41,611 bases of DNA from a virus (IMGVR_UViG_2541047801_000004:1-41611); one strand, 5' to 3'. Counted from the first letter of the stretch, positions 8,277-36,587 are shown. Made by a program: numbers and translations. The notes: a model not told the origin generated them from the letters alone.

Positions 8277-8293
8277 ATTACCTTTCAGGTGAT
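8277..8293. promoter_or_regulatory. operator-like 17-bp dyad (ATTACC TTTCA GGTGAT)
   Basis: Member of the recurrent ATTACC-N5-GGTAAT family. Confidence 0.45.
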
Positions 8294-8329
8294 TTGCAAA
8301 ACGTGCTGGATAGCAAACAAATTATTTGC

Positions 8330-8349
8330 TACTGTATAAATATACAGTT
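8330..8349. promoter_or_regulatory. LexA (SOS) box TACTGTATAAATATACAGTT
   Basis: CTGT-N8-ACAG with AT-rich centre, near-perfect match to the enterobacterial SOS box; 20 bp upstream of the RBS of the 8369 gene and overlapping a TATAAAT -10-like element. Confidence 0.65.
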
Positions 8350-8368
8350 ATTGCATGGAGAAGATAAG

Positions 8369-8626
8369 ATGCAGCAGTATCACTATCCACTGGAAGACGG
8401 ATTTACCGAAAGGATTCACACGCCGGGAGGCGTCAGGTCACTGGTGGAGGGATCGCACTTGATGAAATTACTCCGGGATCTCGATAAGGATGGATTTAAT
8501 GTCGATGGCCCACTTGCCGAACTGACTGCACTGATTAACTACGTCACCAGCTCACAGATGTCTATGCGGGATCTGCAAACACATCTCGACTATTGTGCCG
8601 AACAATTACGAAAACAAACCCGGTAA
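8369..8626 (+). CDS. small antirepressor-like protein (paralogue of the Ant C-terminal domain), putatively SOS-inducible
   Basis: 85 aa; GGAG RBS; clear similarity to the C-terminus of the Ant at 9772-10458 (H-P-GV...L-E-S-LM-LL...DG...AELT...RD-QTH); LexA box immediately upstream. Confidence 0.6.
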   Translation: MQQYHYPLEDGFTERIHTPGGVRSLVEGSHLMKLLRDLDKDGFNVDGPLAELTALINYVTSSQMSMRDLQTHLDYCAEQLRKQTR

Positions 8627-8632
8627 ATTTAA

Positions 8633-8650
8633 AGGCCGCAAGAGCGGCCT
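8633..8650. terminator. hairpin AGGCCGC-AAGA-GCGGCCT between convergent genes
   Basis: 7-bp GC-rich stem; same stem sequence as the hairpin at 10483-10500; flanking T/A runs are weak. Confidence 0.4.
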
Positions 8651-9377
8651 ATCGTTTCGCTTTGTGCTCATCCCAGCACGTTTTGCACCATGCCATTAAG
8701 CCGTCCGCATTTTGATTATTAGGGTAAAAGCTGGTTCGTTTTCTGCGGACATTACAAATTGGGCACCACTTCATATGGCGTGTATTCTTTGGGCCATCGA
8801 GACACCTTGCACACCATTTAGTCAATCCATCTGGATTTTTTGACGATTTCCTGAATTTTTCATATGGAAGGTTTATTCTGCATCGCAAGCACTGCTTGCT
8901 ACCACTTGAAACTCTGTTAGCTGATTCTTCTTTTGGCGGCGATACAGAAGGTATTCTTGCTGGCTCTGATATTGCCTGAGGTGCTTTTTTAGATGACTGA
9001 GACGATATGTCATCACCAGGGAATCTTCCATGATATGCCGGACGCGTTGACACTCCAGGTGGAATCTCAGCTGTAAACGGCTTTGGCTGAATCAGTTGCC
9101 TCTCTTTTGCTAACTCCTGCTGTTTATAATATGTCTGGATTACCGCACTATCATAAGCAGGAGGTGCGGAAATATTAGGCGCATTACCTCCAGTTTTTTG
9201 AAACTGAGTAGAGGTGTGTTCTATCACCTGTGTACGATTAATCGTTATCTCCCCATCTTCGGTCTTTATCGTTTTGTTATGATTAACGACCGTACGATCA
9301 GAGATCTTAGTCTTGTTCTGGTTGATAACGTAAATAATCACCGCAACCACACCAACAACTATCCAGAAAACTTCCAT
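8649..9377 (-). CDS. membrane-anchored Cys-rich (zinc-ribbon-like) protein, possible lysogenic-conversion or exclusion function
   Basis: N-terminal TM helix; C-terminal repeated CxxC motifs (CLRC...NPDGLTKWCARC...KWCPIC...NADGLMAWCKTC); GAGGAAAA RBS; operator-like dyad directly upstream. Confidence 0.55.
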   Translation of the reverse strand: MEVFWIVVGVVAVIIYVINQNKTKISDRTVVNHNKTIKTEDGEITINRTQVIEHTSTQFQKTGGNAPNISAPPAYDSAVIQTYYKQQELAKERQLIQPKPFTAEIPPGVSTRPAYHGRFPGDDISSQSSKKAPQAISEPARIPSVSPPKEESANRVSSGSKQCLRCRINLPYEKFRKSSKNPDGLTKWCARCLDGPKNTRHMKWCPICNVRRKRTSFYPNNQNADGLMAWCKTCWDEHKAKR

Positions 9378-9396
9378 TGCTTTTCCTCACAATAAC

Positions 9397-9413
9397 ATTA
9401 CCTTAAAGGTAAT
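9397..9413. promoter_or_regulatory. operator-like 17-bp dyad (ATTACC TTAAA GGTAAT, perfect half-sites)
   Basis: Best copy of the family; lies between the divergent 9377 gene and the ant leader. Confidence 0.5.
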
Positions 9414-9489
9414 ATCTTGCTTTCAGGTGATCAAGCGTTAAACGCAATCAACCAAATACGGTTGATTTCAATGTTTCTTCGCGCTTATC

Positions 9490-9506
9490 ATTACCTTTAC
9501 GGTAAA
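9490..9506. promoter_or_regulatory. operator-like 17-bp dyad (ATTACC TTTAC GGTAAA) in the ant leader
   Basis: Family member about 90 bp downstream of the 9397 site. Confidence 0.4.
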
Positions 9507-9771
9507 TTTACATCGCACTCCTCTTGTGCCATAGTAATCGGGCACTGGCAAAATCCAGTGCCGGGATTGGCGTCCCGGATTACTACAGAGGCACATATGC
9601 CGCATAAGCGGTTTTTTTATGTGTAAAGCGCACCTATTCTATGGTGGGCTGTGTGGGGGCACCGAAAGGTGCGCCGGGTCCTTTGTAGCCGGTTACGCCA
9701 ACCCTGCACAGTTCACCACCAACCGATTGGCGTCGGTAGTGGTGATTAACCTAACTACAAAGGTGATCACT

Positions 9772-10458
9772 ATGACTGCTAACGTAACCCCATCTGTTTT
9801 TCATTTTGAATCAGAAGCAACCATTCGAGCCATTGTTATTGATGGAAATCCTTGGTTTGTTGCCAAAGACGTTATTAAAGCTCTTCAACTGACAAACCCC
9901 ACTATGTCAATAAAATCTCTTGATGATGATGAAAGGGCTAAATTTAACTTAGGCCGTCAAGGCGAAACCAATATTATCAACGAGTCAGGCCTCTACACAC
10001 TGATCCTCCGCTGCCGCGATGCGGTGACACCAGGCACTATCCCATACCGCTTTCGTAAATGGGTTACAGGTGAGGTTCTTCCTCAGATCCGCCGCACCGG
10101 AAGTTACATTAAAAACTCGCTCCCGCAAGAAGAACGCATAAAGATGGTTGCCGACCAGGTAGCCAACGCCACAGCATCAGCAGTGATGCAGGCAATGAAG
10201 ATAGAGAACAAAACCTACAGCGCCCCACTAAAGCCCGGCTACCGCAGTCTGATTCACTCGCCGTCTGGTGTTCTCGGCCTGACGGAGAACTCACTGCTGA
10301 TGAATCTGCTGAACCAGTTACAGGAAGACGGGCACGACGTATCGGGCGCGGCGGCGGAGTTGACCACCATGTTCTGCTACATCGTCGGTGTGAACAAATG
10401 CCTGCGTGATATCCAGACGCACGCGGAGTACATCAACGACAAAGCAGGGTTCTTCTGA
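9772..10458 (+). CDS. ant: antirepressor (Bro-N domain, Ant-like)
   Basis: ATG 9772 with AAAGGTGA RBS; Bro-N-like N-terminal domain (IRAIVIDGNPWFVAKDV...INESGLYTLILRCR...FRKWVTGEVLPQIRRTGSY); long structured 5' leader. Confidence 0.75.
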   Translation: MTANVTPSVFHFESEATIRAIVIDGNPWFVAKDVIKALQLTNPTMSIKSLDDDERAKFNLGRQGETNIINESGLYTLILRCRDAVTPGTIPYRFRKWVTGEVLPQIRRTGSYIKNSLPQEERIKMVADQVANATASAVMQAMKIENKTYSAPLKPGYRSLIHSPSGVLGLTENSLLMNLLNQLQEDGHDVSGAAAELTTMFCYIVGVNKCLRDIQTHAEYINDKAGFF

Positions 10459-10475
10459 CGGGCGGTGGCATTCGT

Positions 10476-10500
10476 TAAAACAAGGCCGCTTTTGCGGCCT
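10476..10500 (-). terminator. rho-independent terminator after the lipoprotein gene (end of the upstream late transcript)
   Basis: Stem AGGCCGC/GCGGCCT with 4-nt loop, followed on the minus strand by TGTTTTAA. Confidence 0.5.
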
Positions 10501-10512
10501 GTGACATGTCAC
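10501..10512. repeat. 12-bp perfect palindrome GTGACATGTCAC (copy 1 of 3)
   Basis: Exact palindrome abutting the terminator hairpin between convergent ant and lipoprotein genes. Confidence 0.8.
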
Positions 10513-10515
10513 GAC

Positions 10516-10929
10516 TTATAAAGATGACTGATATTTTACAACTCTGTTCATGGCATCTTTTTTCACCGAGCTGATATCAGTTCTTATTTTGGCTTCGTCA
10601 TTACTGTTTATCATGCTATTAACTTTTTGCACTGACATGCCGTTTCTTTCAGCCATTGCACATACAGCAGCATCGTATGAAGAACTCGCTGCGATGGATA
10701 TCACCTTGTTACACTCAAACACAGCACCTTCAGCAATATCAGATGCCGATGATGCTGGCTTGGTATAAGTCTTGACGTAGTGATCAATACAACTATCCTT
10801 CGCCGTCTTGGCAAGAGAAAAATCCATTTTAACTTTGTCGCAATATGCCTTATCAACACCGTCATAAACATCATAGGATGTCGAGCAAGCGGATATCAAA
10901 AATACCGATAACAGCAATAATTCCTTCAT
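10516..10929 (-). CDS. prophage lipoprotein (possible exclusion/moron function)
   Basis: Signal peptide with lipobox LISAC; 137 aa; sits between ejection-protein genes and the ant module. Confidence 0.6.
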   Translation of the reverse strand: MKELLLLSVFLISACSTSYDVYDGVDKAYCDKVKMDFSLAKTAKDSCIDHYVKTYTKPASSASDIAEGAVFECNKVISIAASSSYDAAVCAMAERNGMSVQKVNSMINSNDEAKIRTDISSVKKDAMNRVVKYQSSL

Positions 10930-10938
10930 TGTTGTTCC

Positions 10939-13413: not shown

Positions 13414-13418
13414 TTAAT

Positions 13419-18747: not shown

Positions 18748-21218
18748 CAGAATCCCCCAACAGTAAGGCGAGGAATAACGGCAAGAACAGACAGCGGCAA
18801 CGGGTCAAGCTGACGGATTCTTACACGTCCGTTTTTGCCCCAGTTACTGTCCAGTTTCACTTCTACTTTTCCGGTAGCGTCATCAACAGGATCATCGTAG
18901 AACTCGAATTCACGCTGTGGATATTCGTACCATTTACCGCCGGGCGTAGTCGCCCAGATGCCGCGGCTGGCATTCACAACCAGAGTAACGGATGGGATCA
19001 CCTGTTTTTTGTCCAGCAGCGTTTCCTGTCCGTTAATGTTGATATCCAGTGTTTCGAATTCAGCAGTTATTGGCAGGCCGATGTGCACTACAGCCCCCGG
19101 TGATTCCAGCGTGACGGCACCTCCGGAAACTACTTTCTGTGGTTCCACGTTCGCATCAGAGAGGATGTTTACGGTCTGACCTTCAAGATGAGACAAGCCG
19201 CCAAATGCCCGGCGCGCCATCTGCCAGTTCGTGGTGGCCACATTCCTGAGGGATGGCGGGACGTTCCTGTTAGCACGAACCACTACAGCGGTGTTGCTGG
19301 TTACAGAAATAATGTCGCAACGTAATTCTTTTGACACTTCATCGCCAGTATCAGGATCAGTTCCGGTATAAGGGAACTGTAGTTGCGCACCGACATCACT
19401 ACTGGTGAAGTACGCACCACCAGAAATACTGATTGTATATTCCGCGCGGTAATCCCATTCGCCAGAACCACCAGTGATGGTCATCGTTCTGTCAGACGTA
19501 TTTCTTCCATCATAGCTAAGGCCAGAATCAACAAAGAAAGCATCTTCATCGCTGGTAAATAAACGGCTGGACAGTCGCTCGATGTATCTCACTGTTTGCC
19601 CGTTAACGGTTCGGTTAACGACGAAATACACTGCATCTTCATTTCCTTCGCTGATACTGCATGTGCTTTCATATTTTCCGGTACTGGATTGTGGTGCCCA
19701 TGCAAAAACCTGCTGATCACGCAAATAGGTCATCACCAGTAATTTACCGTCATCACGAATGCAGAAGGCGCTGGAGTAAGGGACAATAGAGAAGCACCAG
19801 TCAACAATGCTGTGCTTCTGAAAAAGATGATTGGCAAGGATGGTCAGGTCGTTCCCCTGATAGCCGTCAACATCGAATGAGTAGGCCAGATCACGGACAA
19901 CACTGCCTTTCTCCTGGACGAACAGAGCAATATTCGCCACGGCAATTGGTGGGACATTGCTAGAGCCATTTGATCCCTGAGAGCTGAATGCAAATGATGA
20001 TGGGGTTAACACTTTGTTCTGGTCGCCGGTGATGACGTACTCACCTCCAGAAGTCAGTGCCACCAGCGAACCGACATCAATCAGGTGGCGGATCTCATTA
20101 ACCTGACGCCCGGCATAGGTGTAGATAATTCTGTCGTCATCCTGCGTAGGATTGCTTTTGCCAAAATCCTTATAATCCCCGGTACGGCTGGCCCAGATAG
20201 TCTGAGGGAACGCAGTCGATGCGGCGAAGTAAAGACGTTGTTGATAATAAACAACAGTGCCAGGATAACCATTAACACTGTTCCAGGCATATTTAGCCCA
20301 TTTATAGCTGGCATTATCCTCGCCAACTACCTGCGAAGGGATATAGGAAATCACCTCGGCAGTTGCAGTAGTTCCATTTGCAGCAGTGATACGGGCAATG
20401 CCAAAACCACTGTGCAGATATTCCCACTCAATGCCAGTATCATCATCACCGGATCCGCCCCAGCCATCCCATGATGTGCCTTCTGTATGCGAAGGGCGCA
20501 AAGTACCTGTTTTGCCTGCTGTAACGGCGCGATAGTAGTTACTGTCTGCACGGCGAATATCGCCAATCGACGTACTCTTACTGGTTTCCCATACCGGCAC
20601 TGAATCCACTGCAGGCTGTTCCAGATAGAACAATTTGCCTACCTGCTCCGCGCCAAAAATAGAGGCGCTTGCCGTTAACGTAATTGTCCCGGTGCTGGCG
20701 CTGGCATAAACCGTCACTGACTCGTCAATATTGATATCTTCAAATGGCCCGTTCTTCGTTACCACATCAACCAGTTGCCAGTTGTCATGAGCATATCGGC
20801 GCAACTCTTTCGGCGGGTATGCCGGGTGAACCAGCGTAAGCACGTCGGCGCTTTGCGTGAATTTAATTCGGAACAGATCGGCTTCAGTATATGGCGTGGC
20901 AATTTCATAAATAACATTGCTGCTGTTCAGCACCAACGCACCATCTTTGATAACGCGCATGTACTGGTGTCCGAACTCCAGAGCATAGGTCTGAACCGTC
21001 GAGAACTGGAACGGAATCAGGCGGCATTTCCGATTTGGGTATTTGGCGGCACCGACAAAACGCGTACCAGGTCGATTCTCAACGCCGCCATACTGCCGCA
21101 CGATAAAGTTATCGCACTTGCGCAATGCCACCTGGTACTTCGCCATGTCGATACGACCGTACAACGACGGTCCAATCTCACCACCGGCAAAGCTGGGCTG
21201 GATCCAACTGATAGCCAT
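18747..21218 (-). CDS. tail tubular protein B-like (T7 gp12-like)
   Basis: 823 aa, directly after the tubular A-like gene with overlapping stop/start. Confidence 0.55.
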   Translation of the reverse strand: MAISWIQPSFAGGEIGPSLYGRIDMAKYQVALRKCDNFIVRQYGGVENRPGTRFVGAAKYPNRKCRLIPFQFSTVQTYALEFGHQYMRVIKDGALVLNSSNVIYEIATPYTEADLFRIKFTQSADVLTLVHPAYPPKELRRYAHDNWQLVDVVTKNGPFEDINIDESVTVYASASTGTITLTASASIFGAEQVGKLFYLEQPAVDSVPVWETSKSTSIGDIRRADSNYYRAVTAGKTGTLRPSHTEGTSWDGWGGSGDDDTGIEWEYLHSGFGIARITAANGTTATAEVISYIPSQVVGEDNASYKWAKYAWNSVNGYPGTVVYYQQRLYFAASTAFPQTIWASRTGDYKDFGKSNPTQDDDRIIYTYAGRQVNEIRHLIDVGSLVALTSGGEYVITGDQNKVLTPSSFAFSSQGSNGSSNVPPIAVANIALFVQEKGSVVRDLAYSFDVDGYQGNDLTILANHLFQKHSIVDWCFSIVPYSSAFCIRDDGKLLVMTYLRDQQVFAWAPQSSTGKYESTCSISEGNEDAVYFVVNRTVNGQTVRYIERLSSRLFTSDEDAFFVDSGLSYDGRNTSDRTMTITGGSGEWDYRAEYTISISGGAYFTSSDVGAQLQFPYTGTDPDTGDEVSKELRCDIISVTSNTAVVVRANRNVPPSLRNVATTNWQMARRAFGGLSHLEGQTVNILSDANVEPQKVVSGGAVTLESPGAVVHIGLPITAEFETLDININGQETLLDKKQVIPSVTLVVNASRGIWATTPGGKWYEYPQREFEFYDDPVDDATGKVEVKLDSNWGKNGRVRIRQLDPLPLSVLAVIPRLTVGGF

Positions 21219-27013: not shown

Positions 27014-27030
27014 ATTACCTTTCAGGTAAG
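27014..27030. promoter_or_regulatory. operator-like 17-bp dyad (ATTACC TTTCA GGTAAG) overlapping a TTGACA -35-like element at 26992-26997
   Basis: Family member upstream of the tRNA/moron unit. Confidence 0.4.
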
Positions 27031-28062: not shown

Positions 28063-28066
28063 AAAC

Positions 28067-28093: not shown

Positions 28094-28136
28094 ATCCTCA
28101 TCAGAGGATATCAACGACATTATCCCCACCAGCAGA

Positions 28137-29612
28137 TTAAGCATATGGATCGTAATCTGTGATGGCCTTGCCTTGCTGGTTCTGCTGCCCGGGAATTCGC
28201 AGACGCTTCGACACAGGGAACGCAAACGTCAGCAGTAGCGCATCGCCTTTACCAGGAGAACGCCCAAGCCGCTCCTTGATATCTTCCTTCGGTTCGATAA
28301 CGATTTTACCGTCCACTCGAACTTTGTACTCTGCCGCCGACAGGTCGTCCGCTGTTTCCTGGTCATCCAGCATGCCGCCCAGCCTCAGCCATGTCTTACA
28401 TGAGTTGAACATCTCCCCGCGCTTGTTGAGCATCTGAGGGTCAGTTGACGCACCACCGAACGGAACAAGTTGCCATGTACGACCCCAGCCATCACCGATT
28501 GACTTCAGACCGGTTCCGTAACCGAAGTCGATGAACACCGCGTCAGCATTGTACTGGTCTTCAAAGTCAGCGATACGCTTCGCCATAATCAGATCGTCGG
28601 TGGTCTTGTTACCAGTCCATAGCACCTTACTGTGCAGCCCCTGCCGCAGGTATATCACCGCGTCATCAACGCCTGAGTATGCCGGGTCAACGCCGATTAT
28701 CACCGGAGCATGTGCAACCTGCGCAGCGGTGACCACCCGTTTCATTGCCTCGTCAGTAAGTCCGGTAGGGATAAACTGCAATTCAGATGCATCCGGGAAT
28801 ATGCCGCGCACACGGATTTTAACGAAGTCGCTGTCTTCCCCGTAGTCATCAACCCATTTCTGCAACTGCTGTTTGTTAGTGCCTTCCACCGTCCGGCTGT
28901 CAATCTGCGCAGTTTTCCAGCGGTGTTTGTATTTGCGGAAACATTCGCGAAAACGCCCGGTATTACGTGTAGGGTTTCCGAACGCCACCCAGATAATCTC
29001 AGTGTCTTCGTCCGTAAGCGCACCCTCAGCAACTTCCCACACCAGATCCGCAATGTTCGACGCTTCATCGAATACCACGATGATGCGTTTTCGCTCGTTG
29101 TGTAGTCCGGCGAATGCCTCAGTGTTGTGCTCAGACCAGGGGATTGCGTCAGCTCGCCACCGCTTGTCGTGCCCAGGATCATTGCTGTACATCGCGGTAG
29201 CGGTACAGGTAAACCAGTCTTTCGTGATAGCAAGGTTCGACCACTTGATAATTTCCGGCCAGGTCTTCGTTCGTAGCTGGTTGTCGGTGTTGGCGGTCAC
29301 CACGACCTTACAATCCTCGCAAGTGGACATGCCCCAGTTGATCAACATTGAGATGTATGCTGATTTACCAATACCGTGACCCGAAGCACGTGCCAGCATA
29401 AGCGGCTGATAGCGCGTCTCGGGATTCTGCAGGTGATCACGTATCTCTCGGAACGCATCGGCCTGCCACTGACGTGGGCCGGTAGCATGTGCCAGTTCAG
29501 TCCCCTCTTCCCCCCACGGGAACGCATAGAGGGCATAGCCAAGCGGATCGTGAGTGAACCCTGCAATATCCTCGATCAACTGCTCTTCAGGAGATAACGC
29601 TGCATCTGTCAC
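28137..29612 (-). CDS. terminase large subunit
   Basis: 491 aa; ATPase-like N-terminal region (GHGIGKSAYIS) and nuclease-like C-terminal region; start overlaps the terS stop. Confidence 0.8.
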   Translation of the reverse strand: MTDAALSPEEQLIEDIAGFTHDPLGYALYAFPWGEEGTELAHATGPRQWQADAFREIRDHLQNPETRYQPLMLARASGHGIGKSAYISMLINWGMSTCEDCKVVVTANTDNQLRTKTWPEIIKWSNLAITKDWFTCTATAMYSNDPGHDKRWRADAIPWSEHNTEAFAGLHNERKRIIVVFDEASNIADLVWEVAEGALTDEDTEIIWVAFGNPTRNTGRFRECFRKYKHRWKTAQIDSRTVEGTNKQQLQKWVDDYGEDSDFVKIRVRGIFPDASELQFIPTGLTDEAMKRVVTAAQVAHAPVIIGVDPAYSGVDDAVIYLRQGLHSKVLWTGNKTTDDLIMAKRIADFEDQYNADAVFIDFGYGTGLKSIGDGWGRTWQLVPFGGASTDPQMLNKRGEMFNSCKTWLRLGGMLDDQETADDLSAAEYKVRVDGKIVIEPKEDIKERLGRSPGKGDALLLTFAFPVSKRLRIPGQQNQQGKAITDYDPYA

Positions 29613-30205
29613 TGATTGCCATCCTGACGTTCTTTGAGTCGCTTCCTGGCTGCTGCTATGCGATCAGCAATTGTCACATTCACATTAACATCCAGGCGTT
29701 CTTTGAATGCGTTGACGTCGACGTGCTTACCAATCAGTTCGAGGTTCTTCACCTTGTCAGGCCATTTAATTTTTTTGAGGATTGTCTCTATCGAATCCTC
29801 GTTCATGTTCATGATGGTCGATGACAGATCAAAGCCACTAAGCGTAGTGCGCCAGATTTTCGGCCACTCGCGGATTGGCTTAAGGCTCCCATCGTCGTTG
29901 AGGATATCGATCACGTCCATCTGGTCGATCTCCACCAGGCGCATGAGAACGTAATCAGCACTGACGCGCATTCGTTTGTTGCGCTCCTCCATCAACTCGG
30001 CAATCCGTTTTTGAATGCGTTCATCGCGCATCATGACACTGGCTTTAACTGCCGCTGTATTTGGGGAGAATCCTGCGTTAATCGCTGCCTGAGTCTGGTT
30101 TTCAGGCGTTTTGATGTATGACTGGCAATAAGCCTCCTGCATTGCGGTTAGTGGCTTAAATTGCGTTGATTTGCGTTTATAGGTTTTAGGTTCAGCAGGC
30201 ATCAT
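29609..30205 (-). CDS. terminase small subunit
   Basis: ATG-ATG at 30205/30202 with GGGTGG RBS; about 198 aa; directly upstream of terL. Confidence 0.65.
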   Translation of the reverse strand: MMPAEPKTYKRKSTQFKPLTAMQEAYCQSYIKTPENQTQAAINAGFSPNTAAVKASVMMRDERIQKRIAELMEERNKRMRVSADYVLMRLVEIDQMDVIDILNDDGSLKPIREWPKIWRTTLSGFDLSSTIMNMNEDSIETILKKIKWPDKVKNLELIGKHVDVNAFKERLDVNVNVTIADRIAAARKRLKERQDGNQ

Positions 30206-30221
30206 AACCACCCTGGTAATT

Positions 30222-30238
30222 GTTACCGTTGTGGTAAT
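30222..30238. promoter_or_regulatory. operator-like 17-bp dyad (GTTACC GTTGT GGTAAT) upstream of terS
   Basis: Family member 17-33 bp upstream of the terS start. Confidence 0.4.
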
Positions 30239-30249
30239 AGTACCATGCA

Positions 30250-30275
30250 AAATAAAGCCGCCATAGTTGGCGGCA
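30250..30275 (-). terminator. rho-independent terminator separating early-right genes from the late operon
   Basis: On the minus strand, stem GCCGCC/GGCGGC with loop AACTAT, followed by TTTATTTT. Confidence 0.5.
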
Positions 30276-30315
30276 GTATTCAAAACCCATCAAATTCATC
30301 ATGCATAATCTACTC

Positions 30316-30671: not shown

Positions 30672-30777
30672 TCCACGCCAGATTGATTAATGACTCCCAG
30701 GTAATATAAACCCGGATACCAGCAGCCAGGCCGAAACCAATCACCATGGCATAAAGCAGAGCGTTGCACTTGTTCAT
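30655..30777 (-). CDS. small hydrophobic peptide (40 aa)
   Basis: ATG 30777 overlaps the upstream stop (TGATG) with GGAGGTGA RBS; sequence MNKCNALLYAMVIGFGLAAGIRVYITWESLINLAWSAIRG; below the ORF-track size cutoff. Confidence 0.4.
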   Translation of the reverse strand: MNKCNALLYAMVIGFGLAAGIRVYITWESLINLAWSAIRG

Positions 30778-31936: not shown

Positions 31937-31937
31937 A

Positions 31938-32474
31938 TCACTCTCCTTTGATGCGAATGCCATCGACGCGTGGCACATTAACTTCCACGATGCGCACAGT
32001 TGGTTTGTACATCTCAATCGCAGTCAGCCAGTCAGCTCCTGTCATGCGCTTTTCCGCATCGCCATTAGTCCACTGAACCGGTACACCAATAGCCTTCATC
32101 GCAATTTCTATTTCCCCGGCAATGGCGCTTTTTCCGCAACCAGTAAAACCAGATACAACGACAAGAACTTCACCTTTGGCTGGTTTTATTTCCCGCGCTT
32201 CCAGCTCCTTAACGCGTTCCTCCAGTTCGTAGACTCTGCATTGCTCTTTATCATCAATCAGATATAACCCAAGACATTCGCTTTCTACCCAACCGCCGAA
32301 ATCATGATCGTAACGCTCACATGAAAACTCACTGTCACCGTCCTTTGTTGGAATGGTGTAACTGTCTAATGGGCCACCGTACGTCGGTACATTTCCCAAT
32401 TCCGGATGCTCAATCCACATGAAAAATGCACGTCCGGTTATAGGGCAAATATCTGGTCGCCATTGGTTACTCAC
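31938..32474 (-). CDS. hypothetical protein with Walker A-like motif
   Basis: 178 aa; SGFTGCGKS matches GxxxxGKS. Confidence 0.45.
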   Translation of the reverse strand: MSNQWRPDICPITGRAFFMWIEHPELGNVPTYGGPLDSYTIPTKDGDSEFSCERYDHDFGGWVESECLGLYLIDDKEQCRVYELEERVKELEAREIKPAKGEVLVVVSGFTGCGKSAIAGEIEIAMKAIGVPVQWTNGDAEKRMTGADWLTAIEMYKPTVRIVEVNVPRVDGIRIKGE

Positions 32475-33010
32475 TGATTGCCTCCTTTGCGAAGCTGGGC
32501 GGCGAACTCGTCACATATGTGCGTCAAAGAGCAAAGTTTGATTGATGGATGTTCGCGCATCATCTCTACCCCCTGCGCCCGTACTTCAGCCAGAAAAGCA
32601 TCGGTGGCTGGGGTGTCTGATTGCAGAGACTTTGCGCGATAGTCATTCCACCCTCTTGCATACATGGGATTAACTTGCACTCCATCTTTTACGCAATATG
32701 CCTGACCTCCACGGTTGATAACCTTGATTTCGTCCATAGCGCCATACTTCAGCCCCGCATTCTCCGCCGCCAACGCCGAAAACTTCTCGTGTGCCAACTT
32801 AACAGCCGCATCAGCCTGCTTAATTGACTCAATCGCTTTCTGCTGGTCTTCGGCCAGCGCATTAGCACGCACCAGTTGCACTTCCAGTTGCGTTGCCAAA
32901 TCGCTGATCAGCTTTGCCACACTGCGCATATCAACGGCACCACATTCTGCTTTCAGTTCCGAAGCCATCTCATGCCCGGCGGCAACTAACCCTTTGATAT
33001 TACTTTCCAT
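32471..33010 (-). CDS. hypothetical protein
   Basis: 179-aa ORF in the nin-like region. Confidence 0.5.
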   Translation of the reverse strand: MESNIKGLVAAGHEMASELKAECGAVDMRSVAKLISDLATQLEVQLVRANALAEDQQKAIESIKQADAAVKLAHEKFSALAAENAGLKYGAMDEIKVINRGGQAYCVKDGVQVNPMYARGWNDYRAKSLQSDTPATDAFLAEVRAQGVEMMREHPSIKLCSLTHICDEFAAQLRKGGNQ

Positions 33011-33071
33011 CTTTACCCTCGCTTATCCACATAACTTATTGATTACATTGATAACTAAAAAGATCGTCGAT

Positions 33072-33419
33072 TCAGAACTCTTCGATGTTCCAGCCGCCAC
33101 CTGCTTTCTTTGGTTTAACCGTTACCCCGATGATTCGGAACGGATACTGATCTGCGGCTACTTTGGTTTTCACCCTGGCGTCGTCGGTCCAGAATCCCCC
33201 TTTCACTTCGTGCAGTTCCATCTCTCCGGTGGCGAGCATCACTGCGAAATCTGGCGTATAGAACGTGTTGTCAGCTAACCGCAGCTTGATACCCTCGAAT
33301 CGATACCAGGCGATTTCCCCTGCACGTTTACGCTGCTCAAGGTGCTGGCAATACGCAGATTCTGTTTTGTTCATCTGGCCTGTTTTGAGTCGACCAAGAG
33401 CCTGTATCTGTTTTCTCAT
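33072..33419 (-). CDS. DUF1064-like phage protein
   Basis: 115 aa; pattern GEI...E...L...YTPDF.V...E.KG typical of this family (from memory). Confidence 0.45.
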   Translation of the reverse strand: MRKQIQALGRLKTGQMNKTESAYCQHLEQRKRAGEIAWYRFEGIKLRLADNTFYTPDFAVMLATGEMELHEVKGGFWTDDARVKTKVAADQYPFRIIGVTVKPKKAGGGWNIEEF

Positions 33420-33421
33420 GA

Positions 33422-33438
33422 TTTACCCATAAGGTAAT
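33422..33438. promoter_or_regulatory. operator-like 17-bp dyad (TTTACC CATAA GGTAAT)
   Basis: Family member between P and the DUF1064-like gene. Confidence 0.4.
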
Positions 33439-33483
33439 TAAAAACCACATAAGACACAAAATCAATAGAGTTAAGAATATTTT

Positions 33484-33500
33484 GTTACCTATAAGGTAAT
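33484..33500. promoter_or_regulatory. operator-like 17-bp dyad (GTTACC TATAA GGTAAT)
   Basis: Family member 45 bp from the previous site. Confidence 0.4.
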
Positions 33501-33536
33501 TATTGAGGCGTAAAAAAATGCGCTATCGCGCTGGTA

Positions 33537-34337
33537 TTACTTGATAAATCCTGCCGACTTTCCTCGCCTGTATTCCTCCATCAGCCACTGCGCCGGTGTT
33601 ATTCCCCCCAGGGTGGCGGCGTTAGGCATGCACCCGAAACTTCGCCCTGGTGGATGGTAAACGTCTCTCCCTGTGTCCGGAGGCGTACTCATGGGTTCTG
33701 GCTTTGCCTGTATGCTGATCACCGGATCCGGTATCTGCTGTCCGGAAGCCACCTTTTTCGCCCAATCATCGAGCAGCCTGCGCGCGTGTTTCTCAACCTC
33801 AATCTCGCTAAGCTGGCGCTGATACATTGCACGGCGGGTATCACATACGACCCAGTACATAACCGGATGTCGCCACGGGAATCTTTCGGGACCACCAGGA
33901 TATAAACTTTTTTCCTTGCTGTACCGGTGAAACTCCGCCATCACATCGTCAATGGTGACGCCAAGAACCATCTTACTGTCTTTACACCACTTGATGAATT
34001 GCCCTGGCGACGGCCAGAACGGAGATTCACTGGCGCGGGCGTGGCGCATACCAGCAGAAACCTGTTCACGGGTTCGGATCCCCCCTTCGGCAAACGCAGC
34101 AATCCACTGCTGTTTTGCAGCGACTTCCTGCTCTGGCGTCTTCAGGTTGGTTACCACTGCCGCCGGAAACAGTTGTTTCAGCTGTTTGAAAAGGGCATCA
34201 ACAAGCCTCTCTGCTGACATGTTCACCACATTGTCATTGTTGACGTACTGATGCTCATAACCTGACATGCGAGAAAGGGCTTCTCCGTCACGGTTTTGTA
34301 TTGCGGTAAAAACGTTGTTCACAAGAAATCCTCCCAT
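33537..34337 (-). CDS. replication protein P-like (DnaB helicase loader)
   Basis: Clear similarity to lambda P as recalled (QWIAAFAEGGIRTREQVSAGMRHARASESPFWPSPGQFIKWC; FPWRHPVMYWVV); start may be 34337 or 34268. Confidence 0.75.
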   Translation of the reverse strand: MGGFLVNNVFTAIQNRDGEALSRMSGYEHQYVNNDNVVNMSAERLVDALFKQLKQLFPAAVVTNLKTPEQEVAAKQQWIAAFAEGGIRTREQVSAGMRHARASESPFWPSPGQFIKWCKDSKMVLGVTIDDVMAEFHRYSKEKSLYPGGPERFPWRHPVMYWVVCDTRRAMYQRQLSEIEVEKHARRLLDDWAKKVASGQQIPDPVISIQAKPEPMSTPPDTGRDVYHPPGRSFGCMPNAATLGGITPAQWLMEEYRRGKSAGFIK

Positions 34338-35116
34338 GCTTCAGGGCTGTTCCAGTGCGGAACGTTGTTATCAGGTAATGTTGATTGCTTCTGTCTGCTA
34401 ATCTGCAGCCGCCTTGCCAGCTTTTGCTCCCACTGTGCCTGATGGTATGCCTTACCCTCAGCCATCCAGTAAATTCTGAACTCTGCAAGTTCCTGTGCCG
34501 TTGGCAGACTGTCCAGGTAGATCCCCTGCAATGAGCTTTTCCGAAGAAAGTCATCTGATGGCTGCCATTGTTCATGCATGACAAATTTGCCTAATTGCCC
34601 TGGCCCACCAGGAGGAACAAAGTTATTCATCACGGCGTTGTTTGCGCCGGGGTCATGAGGCACAGAATCCCCGGTTTTTGTCCTGCTCTCCCTCTCTTGG
34701 TTAAATGACTGGTTATATGACTGGTTCTGGATCCCGTTTTTGGGATCATTCAACATCCCGTTTTTGGGATCATTCAACATCCCGTTTTTGGGTATATTCC
34801 CGTTTTCGGGTTCATTACACCCTTCTAGGTTGCCTTTAATGTTCCCTTTTTTGGTTATATTAAGAGAGAAAACCCGCACTCTTTTCGTCGCTCCCTTTCT
34901 CTCTCCGGTATCTGAAATAAGCCCCATTTTCATGAGCGATATAAGCCCGGCCTGTACGGTTTTTTTATTCAGGCAAGTGTCTTTAACGAGGCGTTCTATG
35001 CTTGGGTAGCAGAGGTTATATTCATCGGCTCTGTCAGCCATCGAGAGCAGTATGAGCTTTAATGACGAGCTACCTGGATCTGTCTCCCAGGCCCAATCTG
35101 TTGCATGTCTGCTCAT
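34319..35116 (-). CDS. replication initiator O-like protein
   Basis: N-terminal HTH-like DNA-binding region; internal repeats NGMLNDPKNGMLNDPKNG coded by the iteron DNA; upstream of P. Confidence 0.65.
   Translation of the reverse strand: MSRHATDWAWETDPGSSSLKLILLSMADRADEYNLCYPSIERLVKDTCLNKKTVQAGLISLMKMGLISDTGERKGATKRVRVFSLNITKKGNIKGNLEGCNEPENGNIPKNGMLNDPKNGMLNDPKNGIQNQSYNQSFNQERESRTKTGDSVPHDPGANNAVMNNFVPPGGPGQLGKFVMHEQWQPSDDFLRKSSLQGIYLDSLPTAQELAEFRIYWMAEGKAYHQAQWEQKLARRLQISRQKQSTLPDNNVPHWNSPEAWEDFL
34731..34820. repeat. replication-origin iterons (about four copies of a 24-bp unit) inside the O gene
   Basis: ATCCCGTTTTTGGGATCATTCAAC is repeated twice exactly and then as degenerate copies; each unit carries an internal dyad (ATCCC...GGGAT); an AT-rich stretch lies nearby. 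Confidence 0.65.
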
Positions 35117-35131
35117 GATTAATCTCCGCTA

Positions 35132-35332
35132 TCAGCTTGAATGTTGTGGGGAGGAATTAATCATGATCTGCTTAATCTCTGCCCTGATGCGACGGTTTGA
35201 TTCCATGGTGCACTCAACACAGTGTCCGTTGTAAACCCAGCGTTCACTGTCATGTCCGTGCTTACATGGTTTTCCGGTGTAGTAGCGTTTAAGTCCGCGC
35301 TTTGCGGCATCAATACGTGTAATGATTTCCAT
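35132..35332 (-). CDS. small zinc-ribbon protein in the cII position
   Basis: ATG 35332; 66 aa with CKHGH...CVEC; lies between cro-like and O. Confidence 0.45.
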   Translation of the reverse strand: MEIITRIDAAKRGLKRYYTGKPCKHGHDSERWVYNGHCVECTMESNRRIRAEIKQIMINSSPQHSS

Positions 35333-35411
35333 GGTAAGCCCTGTTATTAGTATTGGGATTACGGTTATTTTGTGCTGACACAAAAAAAAGATCAACCAGA
35401 TTTGGTTTTTT

Positions 35412-35428
35412 ATTACCTTTTAGGTGCG
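35412..35428. promoter_or_regulatory. operator-like 17-bp dyad (ATTACC TTTTA GGTGCG), weak right half
   Basis: Family member between the cro-like and zinc-ribbon genes. Confidence 0.3.
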
Positions 35429-35482
35429 AATAGATATGAAAAGACCGCCGGATGGCGGTCTACAGAGGGTTGTGGCTGGATA

Positions 35483-35713
35483 TCATGAGTAGAAGAAGTA
35501 TGCCAGTTCTGCTTTTGAGCGCAGCCATTGTCTTGTTTTACAGGCTTTAAAAAGCCCATTCATCAATACCTTACCTGGCATTTTGCGCTTACCTGTTAAG
35601 TGAGTCTGGATATAGTGACTCGTCGTTCCGGCTTCCTGTGCGAAGGCTTCACGCTCATCCGGAGTAAGTGCAAGCCAGTGCTTTTTGAAATCGAAATGTC
35701 CGTTATCGCTCAT
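35483..35713 (-). CDS. Cro/CII-like HTH regulator
   Basis: 76 aa; HTH-like segment LTPDEREAFAQEAGTTSHYIQTHLTG; divergent from the repressor across the operator cluster. Confidence 0.55.
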   Translation of the reverse strand: MSDNGHFDFKKHWLALTPDEREAFAQEAGTTSHYIQTHLTGKRKMPGKVLMNGLFKACKTRQWLRSKAELAYFFYS

Positions 35714-35748
35714 AGCTATTGCCTGATATTTATTTCAGATAATAAATA

Positions 35749-35765
35749 TTCACCCATAAGGTAAC
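35749..35765. promoter_or_regulatory. operator-like 17-bp dyad (TTCACC CATAA GGTAAC), immunity region site A
   Basis: One of three sites between the divergent cro-like and repressor genes. Confidence 0.45.
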
Positions 35766-35779
35766 AAAAATCAAGGATA

Positions 35780-35796
35780 GTTACCTATGGGGTGCA
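35780..35796. promoter_or_regulatory. operator-like 17-bp dyad (GTTACC TATGG GGTGCA), immunity region site B
   Basis: Directly abuts site C. Confidence 0.4.
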
Positions 35797-35813
35797 TTTA
35801 CCTGTTGGGTAAT
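35797..35813. promoter_or_regulatory. operator-like 17-bp dyad (TTTACC TGTTG GGTAAT), immunity region site C
   Basis: Closest of the three to the repressor start. Confidence 0.45.
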
Positions 35814-35867
35814 ATTGCTTTAAATTGAATCATCTACTGATTCATATATGAGGCGATTTTCCAGAAA

Positions 35868-36452
35868 ATGAAAAGTATCCAGGACGTCCGCAGGCAAAAT
35901 CTCAACGACTTGATCGACCGTGAATTCAATGGTGTTCAGACGCGGATGGCAGAAAAACTTGGAACTCAGGCAAATCTGGTAAACCGCTGGGCTCTTGGCA
36001 AGAAGGTTATCGGCGACCAGGTTGCGCGAAAAATTGAAGCTGCCGCCAATAAACCCCGTAACTGGCTTGATATCGATCGCTCGCTTTCTCAGGAAGGTTT
36101 TCAGCCTGTCGGCCCAAGCGACATTGGTCAGCTGGCAGCTCACAACCTGGAACGCTGGATGAGTGAAAGCCGCGACCTTTCAACTCAGGGAAAACTTCAC
36201 CGCGCATCCGGCGTCGCCCAGGTGACAATAAGCCGCCTGTTAAACAATGAGGTCAGCGTTTCCATTTCCACCCTGGAGAATGTTGCATCTGCATTCGGGC
36301 GTCACGGATATGAACTACTGATTCATCCACATGACCCTGCAACTATCAACTATGACCGCTCGCGCTACGCATTGTTACCTGAAACAGAGAAGGCAAAGAT
36401 CGAAAGTTACATTGAATTTGTCATCAACCAGAACGAAAAAAACAAACAATAA
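35868..36452 (+). CDS. prophage repressor, dual HTH (XRE-like), no peptidase S24 autocleavage domain
   Basis: 194 aa; two HTH-like segments (GVQTRMAEKLGTQANLVNRWALG and ASGVAQVTISRLLNNEVSVSISTL); divergent from cro-like gene; weak RBS; no Ala-Gly/Ser-Lys LexA-like cleavage module. Confidence 0.6.
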   Translation: MKSIQDVRRQNLNDLIDREFNGVQTRMAEKLGTQANLVNRWALGKKVIGDQVARKIEAAANKPRNWLDIDRSLSQEGFQPVGPSDIGQLAAHNLERWMSESRDLSTQGKLHRASGVAQVTISRLLNNEVSVSISTLENVASAFGRHGYELLIHPHDPATINYDRSRYALLPETEKAKIESYIEFVINQNEKNKQ

Positions 36453-36474
36453 AATCATATTTTTCAGTAAGTAA

Positions 36475-36496
36475 GCCGCCTTATGGCGGCTTTTTT
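36475..36496 (+). terminator. rho-independent terminator of the repressor gene
   Basis: Stem GCCGCC/GGCGGC with loop TTAT, followed by TTTTTT. Confidence 0.6.
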
Positions 36497-36508
36497 ATTG
36501 CCTGTTCG

Positions 36509-36525
36509 ATTACCTAACGGGTAAT
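36509..36525. promoter_or_regulatory. operator-like 17-bp dyad (ATTACC TAACG GGTAAT)
   Basis: Upstream flank of the PL-like promoter. Confidence 0.45.
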
Positions 36526-36543
36526 TTTTTTAACTCATATCTA

Positions 36544-36570
36544 TTGACATCAAACCAGATACGCATAATT
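36544..36570 (+). promoter_or_regulatory. PL-like early-left promoter (-35 TTGACA, -10 ATAATT) bracketed by operator dyads
   Basis: TTGACA at 36544-36549 and ATAATT at 36565-36570 (15-bp spacer, suboptimal); operator sites at 36509 and 36571. Confidence 0.4.
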
Positions 36571-36587
36571 ATTACCTCAACGGTAAC
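36571..36587. promoter_or_regulatory. operator-like 17-bp dyad (ATTACC TCAAC GGTAAC)
   Basis: Overlaps the predicted transcription start of the PL-like promoter. Confidence 0.45.

What the first reader, a model, noticed from the sequence alone, without database searches (positions are those of the whole stretch)
8277..36587. A 17-bp dyad ATTACC-N5-GGTAAT recurs at 14 intergenic sites across the prophage
Sites at 8277, 9397, 9490, 27014, 30222, 33422, 33484, 35412, 35749, 35780, 35797, 36509, 36571 (each 17 bp), plus the variant motif at 8277 described above. Three sit between the divergent repressor and cro-like genes (OR-like) and two bracket a PL-like promoter, as expected for operators. 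The others lie upstream of terS, the tRNA/moron unit, the ant module, the membrane zinc-ribbon gene and mid-operon between P and the DUF1064-like gene. Either one repressor directly silences many transcription units, far more than the OL/OR arrangement of lambda or P22, or the motif is the site of another regulator or a host factor. None of the sites falls inside a coding region, which argues against chance.
Basis: seen in the sequence. Interest (0 to 1): 0.7.

Follow-up and report, generated by a model that had tools for sequence, protein, structure and literature searches.

The report
Repressor operators of an epsilon15-like prophage
The repeated 17-bp palindrome is real and non-random, but it is the predicted repressor-binding site already annotated in the related Salmonella phage epsilon15, found here at the same places in an E. 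coli prophage of that family, so it is a rediscovery.

Summary
The window is an epsilon15/phiV10-type (Uetakevirus) prophage at guaA. ATTACC-N5-GGTAAT occurs twice exactly and 11 times with at most one mismatch. Chance predicts about one site even at two mismatches or fewer. All 11 lie in the 7.4% of the prophage that is non-coding. In 200 kb of E. coli chromosome there are no exact copies and only two one-mismatch copies, both inside genes.

The same dyad sits at about ten homologous positions in phiV10, epsilon15, SPC32H, Tyrion and a Klebsiella phage. The epsilon15 GenBank record already labels seven of them as repressor binding sites. The window's repressor is a homologue of SPC32H Rep (PDB 5D50), a tetramer inactivated by a small LexA-controlled antirepressor, which is also present here. 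Its recognition helix is invariant across the genus.

Sites overlap or abut promoters. Two conserved cassettes (terminator, operator, promoter, operator) have operators exactly 62 bp apart. Best reading: Rep, and probably the Cro-like protein, bind these operators and directly silence most transcription units. Binding outside the immunity region remains untested in the sources I could read. Interest is low to moderate.

The parts
35868..36452 (+). Rep, the lysogeny repressor (194 aa): N-terminal HTH DNA-binding domain, middle HTH_3-like dimerisation domain, C-terminal tetramerisation and Ant-binding domain
   Evidence: Homologous to SPC32H Rep, PDB 5D50/5D4Z, E=4e-42. 100% identical to the phiV10, ZX5 and phiv142-3 repressors. 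Overexpressing the identical ZX5 protein cut holin and endolysin transcripts by 99.97-99.99% (PMC9782041). Recognition helix ANLVNRW is invariant across the genus. Pfam finds HTH_3 and no S24 peptidase domain.
35483..35713 (-). Cro-like gene (gp39 homologue, 76 aa), divergent from rep; likely second ligand of the same operators
   Evidence: Positional analogue of cro. The segment AGTTSHYIQTHLT, which I read as a probable HTH, is conserved in five genomes. No Pfam hit.
35749..35813 (.). OR-like region with three sites: 35749-35765 (TTCACCCATAAGGTAAC), 35780-35796 (GTTACCTATGGGGTGCA, weak) and 35797-35813 (TTTACCTGTTGGGTAAT)
   Evidence: The PR-like promoter TTGTTA-17-TATTAT (35767->35739, minus strand) has site 35749 across its spacer. 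The three-site layout is conserved in 41 distinct rep-cro spacers of 152-155 bp.
36509..36587 (+). PL cassette: rep terminator, operator 36509-36525, 18 nt, -35 TTGACA (36544), 17 nt, -10 AATTAT (ends 36572), operator 36571-36587, then gp37 ATG at 36606. Operator centres are 62 bp apart
   Evidence: Footprint over 60 distinct cassettes: half-sites and CTATTGAC are near invariant, while the N5 spacers vary.
33422..33500 (-). Second cassette after the P-gene terminator: operator 33484-33500, 18 nt, -35 TTGATT, 17 nt, -10 TTTAAT overlapping operator 33422-33438, then the DUF1064 ATG at 33419. 62-bp spacing
   Evidence: 63 distinct cassettes have the same geometry. The 62-bp pair is also present in phiV10, epsilon15, SPC32H, Tyrion, BUCT711 and phiv142-3.
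35412..35428 (.). Weak site (ATTACCTTTTAGGTGCG) just after the cro-like gene's terminator and before gp40/replication genes
   Evidence: Homologous sites: phiV10 33111, epsilon15 33728/33800, SPC32H 34777/34850, Tyrion 35364, BUCT711 6031.
30204..30238 (-). Tandem sites 30222-30238 and 30204-30220 between a terminator (30274->30257) and the terS ATG (30201). A candidate extended -10, TGgTACTAT, abuts site 30222
   Evidence: The same tandem pair lies before terS in phiV10 (86/104), epsilon15 (11/29; the first is annotated as a repressor site), Tyrion (66/84) and phiv142-3.
27014..27030 (.). Site in the divergent spacer between gp3/portal/head genes (minus strand) and the tRNA-Arg/Sf6-gp66-like unit (plus strand)
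   Evidence: Candidate plus-strand promoters overlap it. Homologous sites lie before the gp3 homologues in all six relatives; epsilon15 2931-2947 is annotated as a repressor site. tRNA confirmed.
8277..8293 (.). Site (ATTACCTTTCAGGTGAT) in the tail-fibre/ant divergent spacer
   Evidence: Conserved in the six-genome alignment together with the LexA box. Epsilon15 19895-19911 is annotated as a repressor site.
8330..8626 (+). LexA box (TACTGTATAAATATACAGTT, 8330-8349) and the small antirepressor gene ant (8369-8626, 85 aa), which is the induction arm of the switch
   Evidence: It is the only LexA-box match in the window. Ant is 87% identical to SPC32H Ant. SPC32H and SPC32N differ at two bases, one of them in the homologous LexA box.
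9397..9506 (.). Two sites in the spacer between gene 8649-9377 (minus strand) and the isrK/C4/BRO-N unit (plus strand). 9397-9413 is exact and lies 19 nt from the ATG at 9377. 9490-9506 overlaps the -10 of TTGATT-18-TATCAT and abuts the -35 (TTTACA, 9507) of the promoter predicted to start isrK

Best explanation
The dyads are the operators of the prophage's own immunity system. Rep (35868-36452) recognises (A)TTACC-N5-GGTAA(T) through its N-terminal helix-turn-helix. The Cro-like protein probably binds the same sites during lytic growth. In the lysogen Rep occupies three sites in the rep/cro spacer, which blocks PR and sets its own synthesis. It also occupies operator pairs 62 bp apart (about six helical turns) that enclose the -35 and -10 of PL and of a second early promoter after gene P. 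One Rep tetramer, which carries two DNA-binding dimers, could bridge each pair. Further single or tandem sites overlap or abut the start regions of the terS, head, tail-fibre/ant and isrK-C4-BRO-N units, so most transcription units are shut off directly rather than only through a cascade. Induction does not go through repressor cleavage. DNA damage removes LexA from the box in front of the small ant gene, and Ant then pulls Rep tetramers off the DNA.

Shown here: motif enrichment, non-coding placement, positional conservation across the genus, promoter overlap, homology of Rep and Ant to the characterised SPC32H proteins, and the LexA box. Inferred: actual binding of Rep or Cro to each site, looping, and the direction of the effect at each promoter.
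For: - Enrichment and placement.
- Host control: 0 exact and 2 one-mismatch copies in 200 kb, both inside genes.
- Same motif at about ten homologous positions in six related phages from E. coli, Salmonella, Enterobacter and Klebsiella.
- Epsilon15 record annotates seven as protein_bind 'repressor'.
- Rep is homologous to SPC32H Rep 5D50. Its recognition helix is invariant although overall identity is only about 43%.
- The identical repressor silences lysis genes when overexpressed (PMC9782041).
- Promoter overlap.
- Two terminator-operator-promoter-operator cassettes with invariant half-sites, an invariant -35 and variable N5 spacers in 60 and 63 distinct sequences.
- Three-site OR layout in 41 distinct spacers.
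- SPC32H Rep binds palindromic DNA as a tetramer (PMC9638917) and has a loop-type tetramerisation domain (PMC9986798).
- Ant is 87% identical to SPC32H Ant and has a LexA box.
Against: - No binding data for these sites were accessible. The SPC32H primary papers and the epsilon15 genome paper are not in the held library. The epsilon15 features are predictions.
- Every genome that has the motif has both Rep and the Cro-like protein, so co-occurrence cannot say which protein binds, or exclude another genus-specific protein.
- Several sites (27014, 8277, 9397) do not sit on a convincing sigma-70 promoter.
- At 9490 and in OR the geometry could mean activation rather than repression.
- The two MDD (middle dimerisation domain) pairs in the Rep tetramer are about 100 A apart, whereas 62 bp of straight DNA is about 210 A, so bridging would need sharp bending.
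Confidence: 0.8

Rival explanations
1. The sites are bound mainly by the Cro-like protein (35483-35713) or another genus-specific regulator as part of lytic timing, and Rep acts only at the immunity region.
For: The Cro-like protein's probable HTH segment is as conserved as Rep's, and it co-occurs with the motif in the loci examined. The OR sites are the weakest matches in the E. coli lineage, whereas the best matches are elsewhere.
Against: The same dyad forms the OR and PL sites, where a repressor must act. The epsilon15 annotators assigned the sites to the repressor. The Rep tetramer fits the conserved 62-bp pairs. In lambda-type switches the repressor and Cro share operators, so this rival mostly overlaps with the main explanation.
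Confidence: 0.1
2. The dyad is the site of a host DNA-binding protein (a global regulator or nucleoid protein) that the phage recruits.
For: The motif is conserved in phages of four enterobacterial genera although Rep diverges to about 43% identity.
Against: 200 kb of E. coli chromosome holds no exact copy and only two one-mismatch copies, both inside genes, against 11 in 38 kb of prophage. Rep's recognition helix is invariant, which explains the conservation.
Confidence: 0.03
3. The dyads act as RNA hairpins (processing, attenuation or ribosome-binding-site masking) rather than as DNA sites. Two of them end 2 nt before start codons.
For: Sites 30204 and 33422 lie 2 nt from the terS and DUF1064 ATGs and must contain the Shine-Dalgarno sequence. 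Each dyad can form a 5-7 bp stem.
Against: Predicted stems are weak (-1 to -5 kcal/mol). The base sequence is conserved, not just the pairing: among 441 distinct sites, 359 changes are one-sided and break the pair, against 32 two-sided. Several sites lie in divergent spacers or upstream of the promoters. No Rfam family matches them.
Confidence: 0.03
4. Chance recurrence of an A+T-rich palindrome in A+T-rich intergenic DNA.
For: Intergenic DNA is A+T-rich, and weak (3-mismatch) matches are common (35 observed against 13.5 expected).
Against: No shuffle out of 100 reaches the observed counts at 0 or at 2 mismatches or fewer. Positions and the 62-bp spacing are conserved across divergent genomes while the surrounding bases and N5 spacers vary.
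Confidence: 0.01

Closest known systems
Predicted repressor binding sites of Salmonella phage epsilon15 (GenBank AY150271.2; Kropinski et al. 2007, Virology 369:234, not readable here)
   Same: Identical dyad, ATTACC-N5-GGTAAT. The annotated sites lie before terS, before gp3, in the ant/tailspike spacer, left of the repressor gene (three sites) and at the replication-gene junction, which are the same position classes as in the window. Same gene order, with a homologous repressor, Cro-like protein and Ant.
   Different: The window is an E. coli prophage of the phiV10 lineage. Its repressor is only 42% identical overall, most of its sites carry one mismatch, and it has an extra isrK/C4/BRO-N module with two sites. 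The phiV10-lineage records I read (phiV10, phiv142-3, RefSeq strain P4) annotate no operators.
Rep/Ant switch of Salmonella phage SPC32H (PDB 5D50, 5D4Z; Kim & Ryu 2013 J Virol; Kim et al. 2016 PNAS)
   Same: Homologous Rep (E=4e-42) and Ant (87% identity). LexA box before ant. SPC32H carries the same dyads at the same places. Rep binds palindromic sites as a tetramer and Ant dismantles it (PMC9638917).
   Different: I could not read which operators were tested in those papers. PMC9986798 states that the structural mechanism of repression is not extensively characterised. Rep's C-terminal two thirds are diverged here.
Lambda/P22-type OL/OR switch
   Same: Divergent repressor and cro-like genes with three operators between them, a 17-bp dyad, and operators overlapping PR and PL.
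   Different: No S24 autocleavage domain; induction is through an antirepressor. The repressor is a tetramer. Operators also occur at eight or more places outside the immunity region. PL has two operators 62 bp apart that enclose the promoter, rather than three adjacent ones.
Phage P1 C1 repressor with dispersed operators and the immI (c4 RNA/ant) module
   Same: One repressor with many operators spread over the genome (22 in P1, PMC8546580). An antirepressor unit preceded by a C4-type antisense RNA is also present here and carries an operator at its promoter.
   Different: P1 operators are asymmetric (ATTGCTCTAATAAATTT). Here the sites are symmetric dyads and the repressor gives only XRE-type HTH Pfam hits. 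I did not compare it directly with C1.
Stoperators of cluster A mycobacteriophages (L5, Bxb1)
   Same: Numerous repressor sites in short intergenic gaps across the genome that keep the prophage silent (PMC9283540).
   Different: Stoperators are asymmetric sequences bound by a monomeric repressor and block elongating polymerase (PMC9283540). The sites here are symmetric, mostly sit at promoters just after terminators, and the repressor is a tetramer.

Membership tests
Uetakevirus (epsilon15/SPC32H-type) Rep-operator immunity system | Rep homologue with an N-terminal HTH domain plus C-terminal dimerisation and tetramerisation domains | tested here: met
   E=4e-42 over residues 1-190 against PDB 5D50. 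Alignment with four genus members has 70 invariant columns, including the recognition helix.
Uetakevirus (epsilon15/SPC32H-type) Rep-operator immunity system | 17-bp dyad ATTACC-N5-GGTAAT at the positions annotated as repressor sites in epsilon15 | tested here: met
   The position classes match in six relatives.
Uetakevirus (epsilon15/SPC32H-type) Rep-operator immunity system | Small Ant antirepressor under a LexA box | tested here: met
   87% identity to SPC32H Ant. LexA box at 8330-8349, conserved in six genomes. One of the two SPC32H/SPC32N differences lies in the homologous box.
Uetakevirus (epsilon15/SPC32H-type) Rep-operator immunity system | Physical binding of Rep to the dyads, including those outside the immunity region | not testable with these tools
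   Needs EMSA, footprinting or ChIP. The primary papers are not in the held library.
Lambda-type CI/Cro switch | Three operators between divergent repressor and cro genes that overlap PR and PRM | tested here: met
   Overlap with PR is clear; PRM is not confidently located.
Lambda-type CI/Cro switch | Repressor with a LexA-like S24 autocleavage domain | tested here: not met
   Pfam finds only HTH families. The homologous structure is the non-cleavable SPC32H Rep.
Lambda-type CI/Cro switch | Operators confined to OL and OR | tested here: not met
   At least eight good sites lie outside the immunity region.
P1 C1-type dispersed operators | Many operators dispersed over the genome in front of separate transcription units | tested here: met
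   The P1 figure is from PMC8546580.
P1 C1-type dispersed operators | Asymmetric 17-bp operator | tested here: not met
   The sites are symmetric dyads.
Mycobacteriophage stoperators | Asymmetric sites recognised by a monomeric repressor | tested here: not met
   The sites are palindromic, so they have no orientation. The homologous Rep is a tetramer.
Intrinsic terminator / RNA hairpin element | Stable G+C-rich stem followed by a T run, or pairing kept by compensatory changes | tested here: not met
   Stems are -1 to -5 kcal/mol. 359 one-sided changes against 32 two-sided. The true terminators lie next to the dyads and are separate from them.

The most novel reading that the evidence does not exclude
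Rep tetramers silence almost the whole 39-kb genome directly, including the terS, head and tail-fibre units. They would do so through a portable terminator-operator-promoter-operator cassette whose two operators, exactly 62 bp apart, are bridged by one tetramer in a very small DNA loop. Because the recognition helix and the operator are invariant across Reps that are only about 43% identical, phages of E. coli, Salmonella, Enterobacter and Klebsiella in this genus would form one cross-immune group. At the isrK/C4 promoter (operator centred near -44) Rep might activate rather than repress.
Probability: 0.3. Interest if true: 0.45.

Novelty: already known. Interest (0 to 1): 0.25.

Why it matters
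It would matter mainly for annotation and for people working on this phage group. The phiV10-lineage records read here (phiV10, phiv142-3, RefSeq strain P4) carry no operator annotation, and the long terS start used by PGAP and the phiV10 record swallows two operators and a terminator. If Rep really binds all these sites, epsilon15-like phages would be an enterobacterial example of whole-genome direct repression by one antirepressor-controlled tetramer. The conserved 62-bp operator pairs would then be a convenient system for studying very short repression loops. The shared operator across host genera predicts cross-immunity, which is relevant to phiV10-based detection tools and to prophage interactions. 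None of this is a new kind of system.

Tried and rejected
- I tried to read the primary literature and none of it is held: the epsilon15 genome paper (PMID 17825342, PMC2698709), Kim & Ryu 2013 (PMC3807360 and DOI), and Kim et al. 2016 (PMC4983836 and DOI).
- Full-text searches for the operator sequences and for 'repressor binding site' with epsilon15 found nothing.
- I looked for a phage where the motif and Rep separate. The only distant hit, Pseudomonas phage PseuP_224 CI, has a different recognition helix and an S24 domain. It has no significant motif match: one 1-mismatch core, consistent with chance. That is a weak negative control only.
Co-occurrence therefore cannot separate Rep from Cro-like or other genus proteins.
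- The exact source genome is not among the complete E. coli genomes. The closest is strain P4, which differs in the 30.3-32.9 kb region.
- A whole-genome motif count in the host was not possible, because the pattern has only 12 specified bases. I sampled 200 kb instead.
- The fixed '-10 abuts operator' geometry fits five sites but not 8277, 9397 or the minus strand at 27014.
- The RNA-hairpin and chance explanations were considered and rejected.

Full report
**What the window is.** Most of the window (about 3312 to the right end) is a prophage of the epsilon15/phiV10 type, genus Uetakevirus. Its closest relatives are phiv142-3, PAS61, TL-2011b and phiV10, at 95-98% identity. It is nearly identical to a prophage next to guaA in E. 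coli strain P4, except for a variable block at 30.3-32.9 kb. The window ends exactly at the integrase start codon, so the attachment site on that side is not included. I transferred the RefSeq gene calls of strain P4 onto the window by BLAST and added open reading frames for the variable block.

**Check of the observation.** The exact pattern ATTACC-N5-GGTAAT occurs twice, at 9397 and 36509, against none in 100 shuffles. With at most one mismatch there are 11 sites: 8277, 9397, 9490, 27014, 30204, 30222, 33422, 33484, 35797, 36509 and 36571. With at most two mismatches there are 13, against 1.07 expected.

- All 11 good sites lie in the 7.4% of the prophage that is non-coding. The probability of that under random placement is about 4e-13.
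- The two 2-mismatch sites lie inside genes and look like chance.
They are credible only because relatives have sites at the same places.
- The statement that no site is coding depends on the terS start. The long start used by PGAP and the phiV10 record (30283) would include two sites and a terminator hairpin (30274->30257). The ATG at 30201, as annotated in epsilon15, SPC32H, Tyrion and phiv142-3, is more plausible.

**Host control.** Four 50-kb stretches of the strain P4 chromosome contain no exact copy and two one-mismatch copies, both inside genes or a pseudogene. That is about 1 per 100 kb, against about 29 per 100 kb in the prophage.

**The motif was already annotated.** The GenBank record of epsilon15 (AY150271.2) carries seven protein_bind features labelled 'repressor / lysogeny'. 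Each is an exact copy of this dyad. They lie:

- before terS (11-27);
- before gp3 (2931-2947);
- in the gp19/tailspike spacer (19895-19911);
- to the left of the repressor gene (32478, 32554, 32616);
- between the replication gene and the next gene (35906-35922).

The same dyad occurs 14-18 times (at two mismatches or fewer) in phiV10, SPC32H, phiv142-3, Enterobacter phage Tyrion and Klebsiella phage BUCT711, always against about one expected. The sites fall into about ten shared position classes:

1. A tandem pair before terS.
2. Before the gp3/portal genes.
3. The ant/tailspike spacer.
4. Downstream of ant, before the BRO-N-type module.
5. Before the lysis genes (absent from the window, which lacks that spacer).
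6. Before int (outside the window).
7. PL.
8. OR.
9. After the cro terminator.
10. A pair at the junction after the replication genes.

**The proteins.** The 194-aa product of 35868-36452 is 100% identical to the repressors of phiV10, ZX5 and phiv142-3. It is homologous over its whole length to Rep of Salmonella phage SPC32H (PDB 5D50, E=4e-42).

- Overexpressing the identical ZX5 protein abolished free phage and cut holin and endolysin transcripts by 99.97-99.99% (PMC9782041).
- Secondary sources describe SPC32H Rep as a tetramer that binds palindromic sites. The two DNA-binding domains that form each pair come from different dimers. It is released by a tetrameric antirepressor, Ant (PMC9638917).
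- Its domain order is DNA-binding domain, middle dimerisation domain (MDD), then a loop-type tetramerisation domain. The same source notes that its repression mechanism 'has not been extensively characterized' (PMC9986798).
- Across the window, Tyrion, BUCT711, epsilon15 and SPC32H, Rep identity falls to 43%. The N-terminal helix-turn-helix stays conserved, and the segment ANLVNRW, which I take to be the recognition helix, is invariant. That explains why the operator is the same in phages of four host genera.
- The Cro-like protein (35483-35713) is equally conserved in its probable HTH segment, so it probably shares the sites.

**The induction arm.** The small gene 8369-8626 is 87% identical to SPC32H Ant. 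It is preceded by the only LexA-box match in the window, TACTGTATAAATATACAGTT at 8330-8349. The Rep-type dyad and the LexA box are both conserved in the six-genome alignment of this spacer. SPC32H and its clear-plaque sibling SPC32N differ at two bases, and one is in the homologous LexA box. This agrees with my recollection of Kim & Ryu 2013, which I could not re-read.

**Site-by-site anatomy.**

- **PL.** After the rep terminator come operator 36509, 18 nt, TTGACA, 17 nt, AATTAT and operator 36571. The last two bases of the -10 are the first two of that operator.
- **Second cassette.** The same layout recurs on the minus strand after the P-gene terminator: operator 33484, 18 nt, TTGATT, 17 nt, TTTAAT and operator 33422, which ends 2 nt before the DUF1064 ATG.
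- **Conserved spacing.** In both cassettes the operator centres are 62 bp apart. That spacing holds in all six relatives (63 bp at the BUCT711 PL pair). Of these, 91 carry rep within the stretch held, and all but three short fragments of the rest carry other genes of this phage type. About half a match would be expected by chance even in the far larger 596-Gb genome collection (my calculation).
- **Footprint.** In 60 distinct PL cassettes and 63 distinct junction cassettes the half-sites and the -35 block CTATTGA are nearly invariant, while the N5 spacers and flanks vary.
- **PR.** The PR-like promoter (TTGTTA-17-TATTAT, minus strand) has site 35749 across its spacer. The three-site OR layout is kept in 41 distinct rep-cro spacers.
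- **terS.** Before terS, a candidate extended -10 (TGgTACTAT) abuts site 30222, and site 30204 covers the ribosome-binding region.
- **9490.** Site 9490 overlaps the -10 of one candidate promoter and abuts the -35 (TTTACA, 9507) of another. The second promoter's predicted start coincides with the 5' end of an isrK-like RNA.
- **Unclear sites.** For 8277, 9397 and the gp3 side of 27014 I found no convincing promoter overlap.

**Mechanism.** The best-supported reading is classical operator control extended to most transcription units. Rep bound at these dyads occludes or encloses promoters. A tetramer with two DNA-binding pairs fits the conserved 62-bp pairs, which span about six helical turns and so lie on the same face of the DNA. 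However, the two MDD pairs in the crystal are about 100 A apart, while 62 bp of straight DNA is about 210 A, so bridging would need sharp bending. That step is inference. LexA, Ant and Rep provide induction. I give this explanation 0.8.

**Rivals.**

- **Cro-like protein or another genus-specific protein as the main ligand.** Co-occurrence cannot separate them (0.1).
- **A host factor.** Disfavoured by the host control and by the restriction of the paired form to this phage type (0.03).
- **RNA hairpins.** Predicted stems are only -1 to -5 kcal/mol. Among 441 distinct sites, 359 changes are one-sided and 32 two-sided. No Rfam family matches the sites (0.03).
- **Chance.** Already refuted by the conservation data (0.01).

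**Comparison with known systems.** By every feature I could test, this is a member of the epsilon15/SPC32H Rep-operator system. Physical binding could not be tested.

- It works like a lambda switch at OR and PL. It fails two lambda features: the repressor has no S24 autocleavage domain, and the operators are not confined to OL and OR.
- The genome-wide spread resembles P1, which has 22 dispersed C1 operators of an asymmetric 17-bp consensus (PMC8546580).
- It also resembles mycobacteriophage stoperators, numerous asymmetric sites bound by a monomeric repressor that stop elongation (PMC9283540).
- The sites here are symmetric and mostly promoter-proximal, so the resemblance to P1 and stoperators is functional only.

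**Verdict.** However, the same dyads at the same places are already annotated as repressor sites in epsilon15, and the repressor family is structurally characterised. What my accessible sources leave open is whether Rep actually binds the sites outside the immunity region, whether the 62-bp pairs are looped, and whether the shared operator makes the genus cross-immune. Novelty: already known. Interest: 0.25.

Noticed in passing
window 9542-9618 (+), 9637-9723 (+), 9772-10458 (+): Rfam finds an isrK-like Hfq-binding sRNA (76.8 bits) and a C4 antisense RNA (79.5 bits) directly upstream of a BRO-N domain gene. This looks like a second, P1-immI-like antirepressor module beside the small SPC32H-type Ant. 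The Rep-type site 9490-9506 abuts the -35 of the promoter predicted to start isrK, with its centre near -44, so it could repress or activate.
   Followed up: partly
window 8330-8349: A single strong LexA box (TACTGTATAAATATACAGTT) lies 20 nt before the small ant gene (8369-8626) and is conserved in six related genomes. SPC32H and SPC32N differ at only two bases, one of them in the homologous box.
   Followed up: yes
window about 8096 (tail-fibre gene 5538-8173, minus strand): Compared with the otherwise 99.4% identical gene in the E. coli P4 prophage, the tail-fibre gene has a 16-nt deletion after nucleotide 77 (codon 26). This shifts the frame, so the prophage may be defective or the assembly may contain an error. 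The remaining ORF restarts at a GTG at 8081.
   Followed up: partly
window 34698-34792: A perfect 24-bp tandem repeat (2.6 copies, 34731-34792) and a 12-bp repeat (2.4 copies, 34698-34726) lie inside the DnaT-like replication gene. They are candidate origin iterons, by analogy with lambda ori inside gene O.
   Followed up: no
window 29609-30283: The terS start is annotated inconsistently. PGAP and the phiV10 record use a TTG at 30283 (224 aa), which places a terminator hairpin and two operator dyads inside the gene. Epsilon15, SPC32H, Tyrion and phiv142-3 use the equivalent of the ATG at 30201 (197 aa).
   Followed up: partly
window 8221-8261: In the tail-fibre/ant spacer a lone half-site ATTACC (8227-8232), with flanks TTCTATTACC...AACC..ATATG, is invariant in six genomes and abuts a candidate minus-strand -10 (TAGAAT). 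Next to it is a different 17-bp dyad, ATGGAT-N5-ATCCAT (8245-8261), intact only in this window; phiV10 has a degenerate right arm.
   Followed up: no
L001 26869, L002 26881, L003 26959, L006 28567, L004 39128, L005 12619 (outside the window, just beyond 41611): All relatives keep a two-mismatch variant of the dyad (ATTACCYTAAAGGTATA or its reverse complement) upstream of the integrase gene, near attP. This suggests Rep may also touch int expression or the attachment region.
   Followed up: no
alignments A1 and A2 (window, L002, L003, L005, L006): The repressors of phages from E. coli, Salmonella, Enterobacter and Klebsiella are only 43-78% identical, yet they share an invariant recognition helix and the same operator. 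Ant is 87% identical between the E. coli and Salmonella phages. The whole genus may be one immunity group, unlike the many immunity types of lambdoid phages.
   Followed up: partly
window 1-3300: The left flank is not core chromosome. It holds an AAA-ATPase gene (269-1738), a fragment of an integrase-core (transposase-like) gene (1826-2149) and a response-regulator gene (2243-3013), lying between the prophage lysis genes and yfgI in strain P4. Related sequence occurs on many plasmids (489 of 825 matching places).
   Followed up: no
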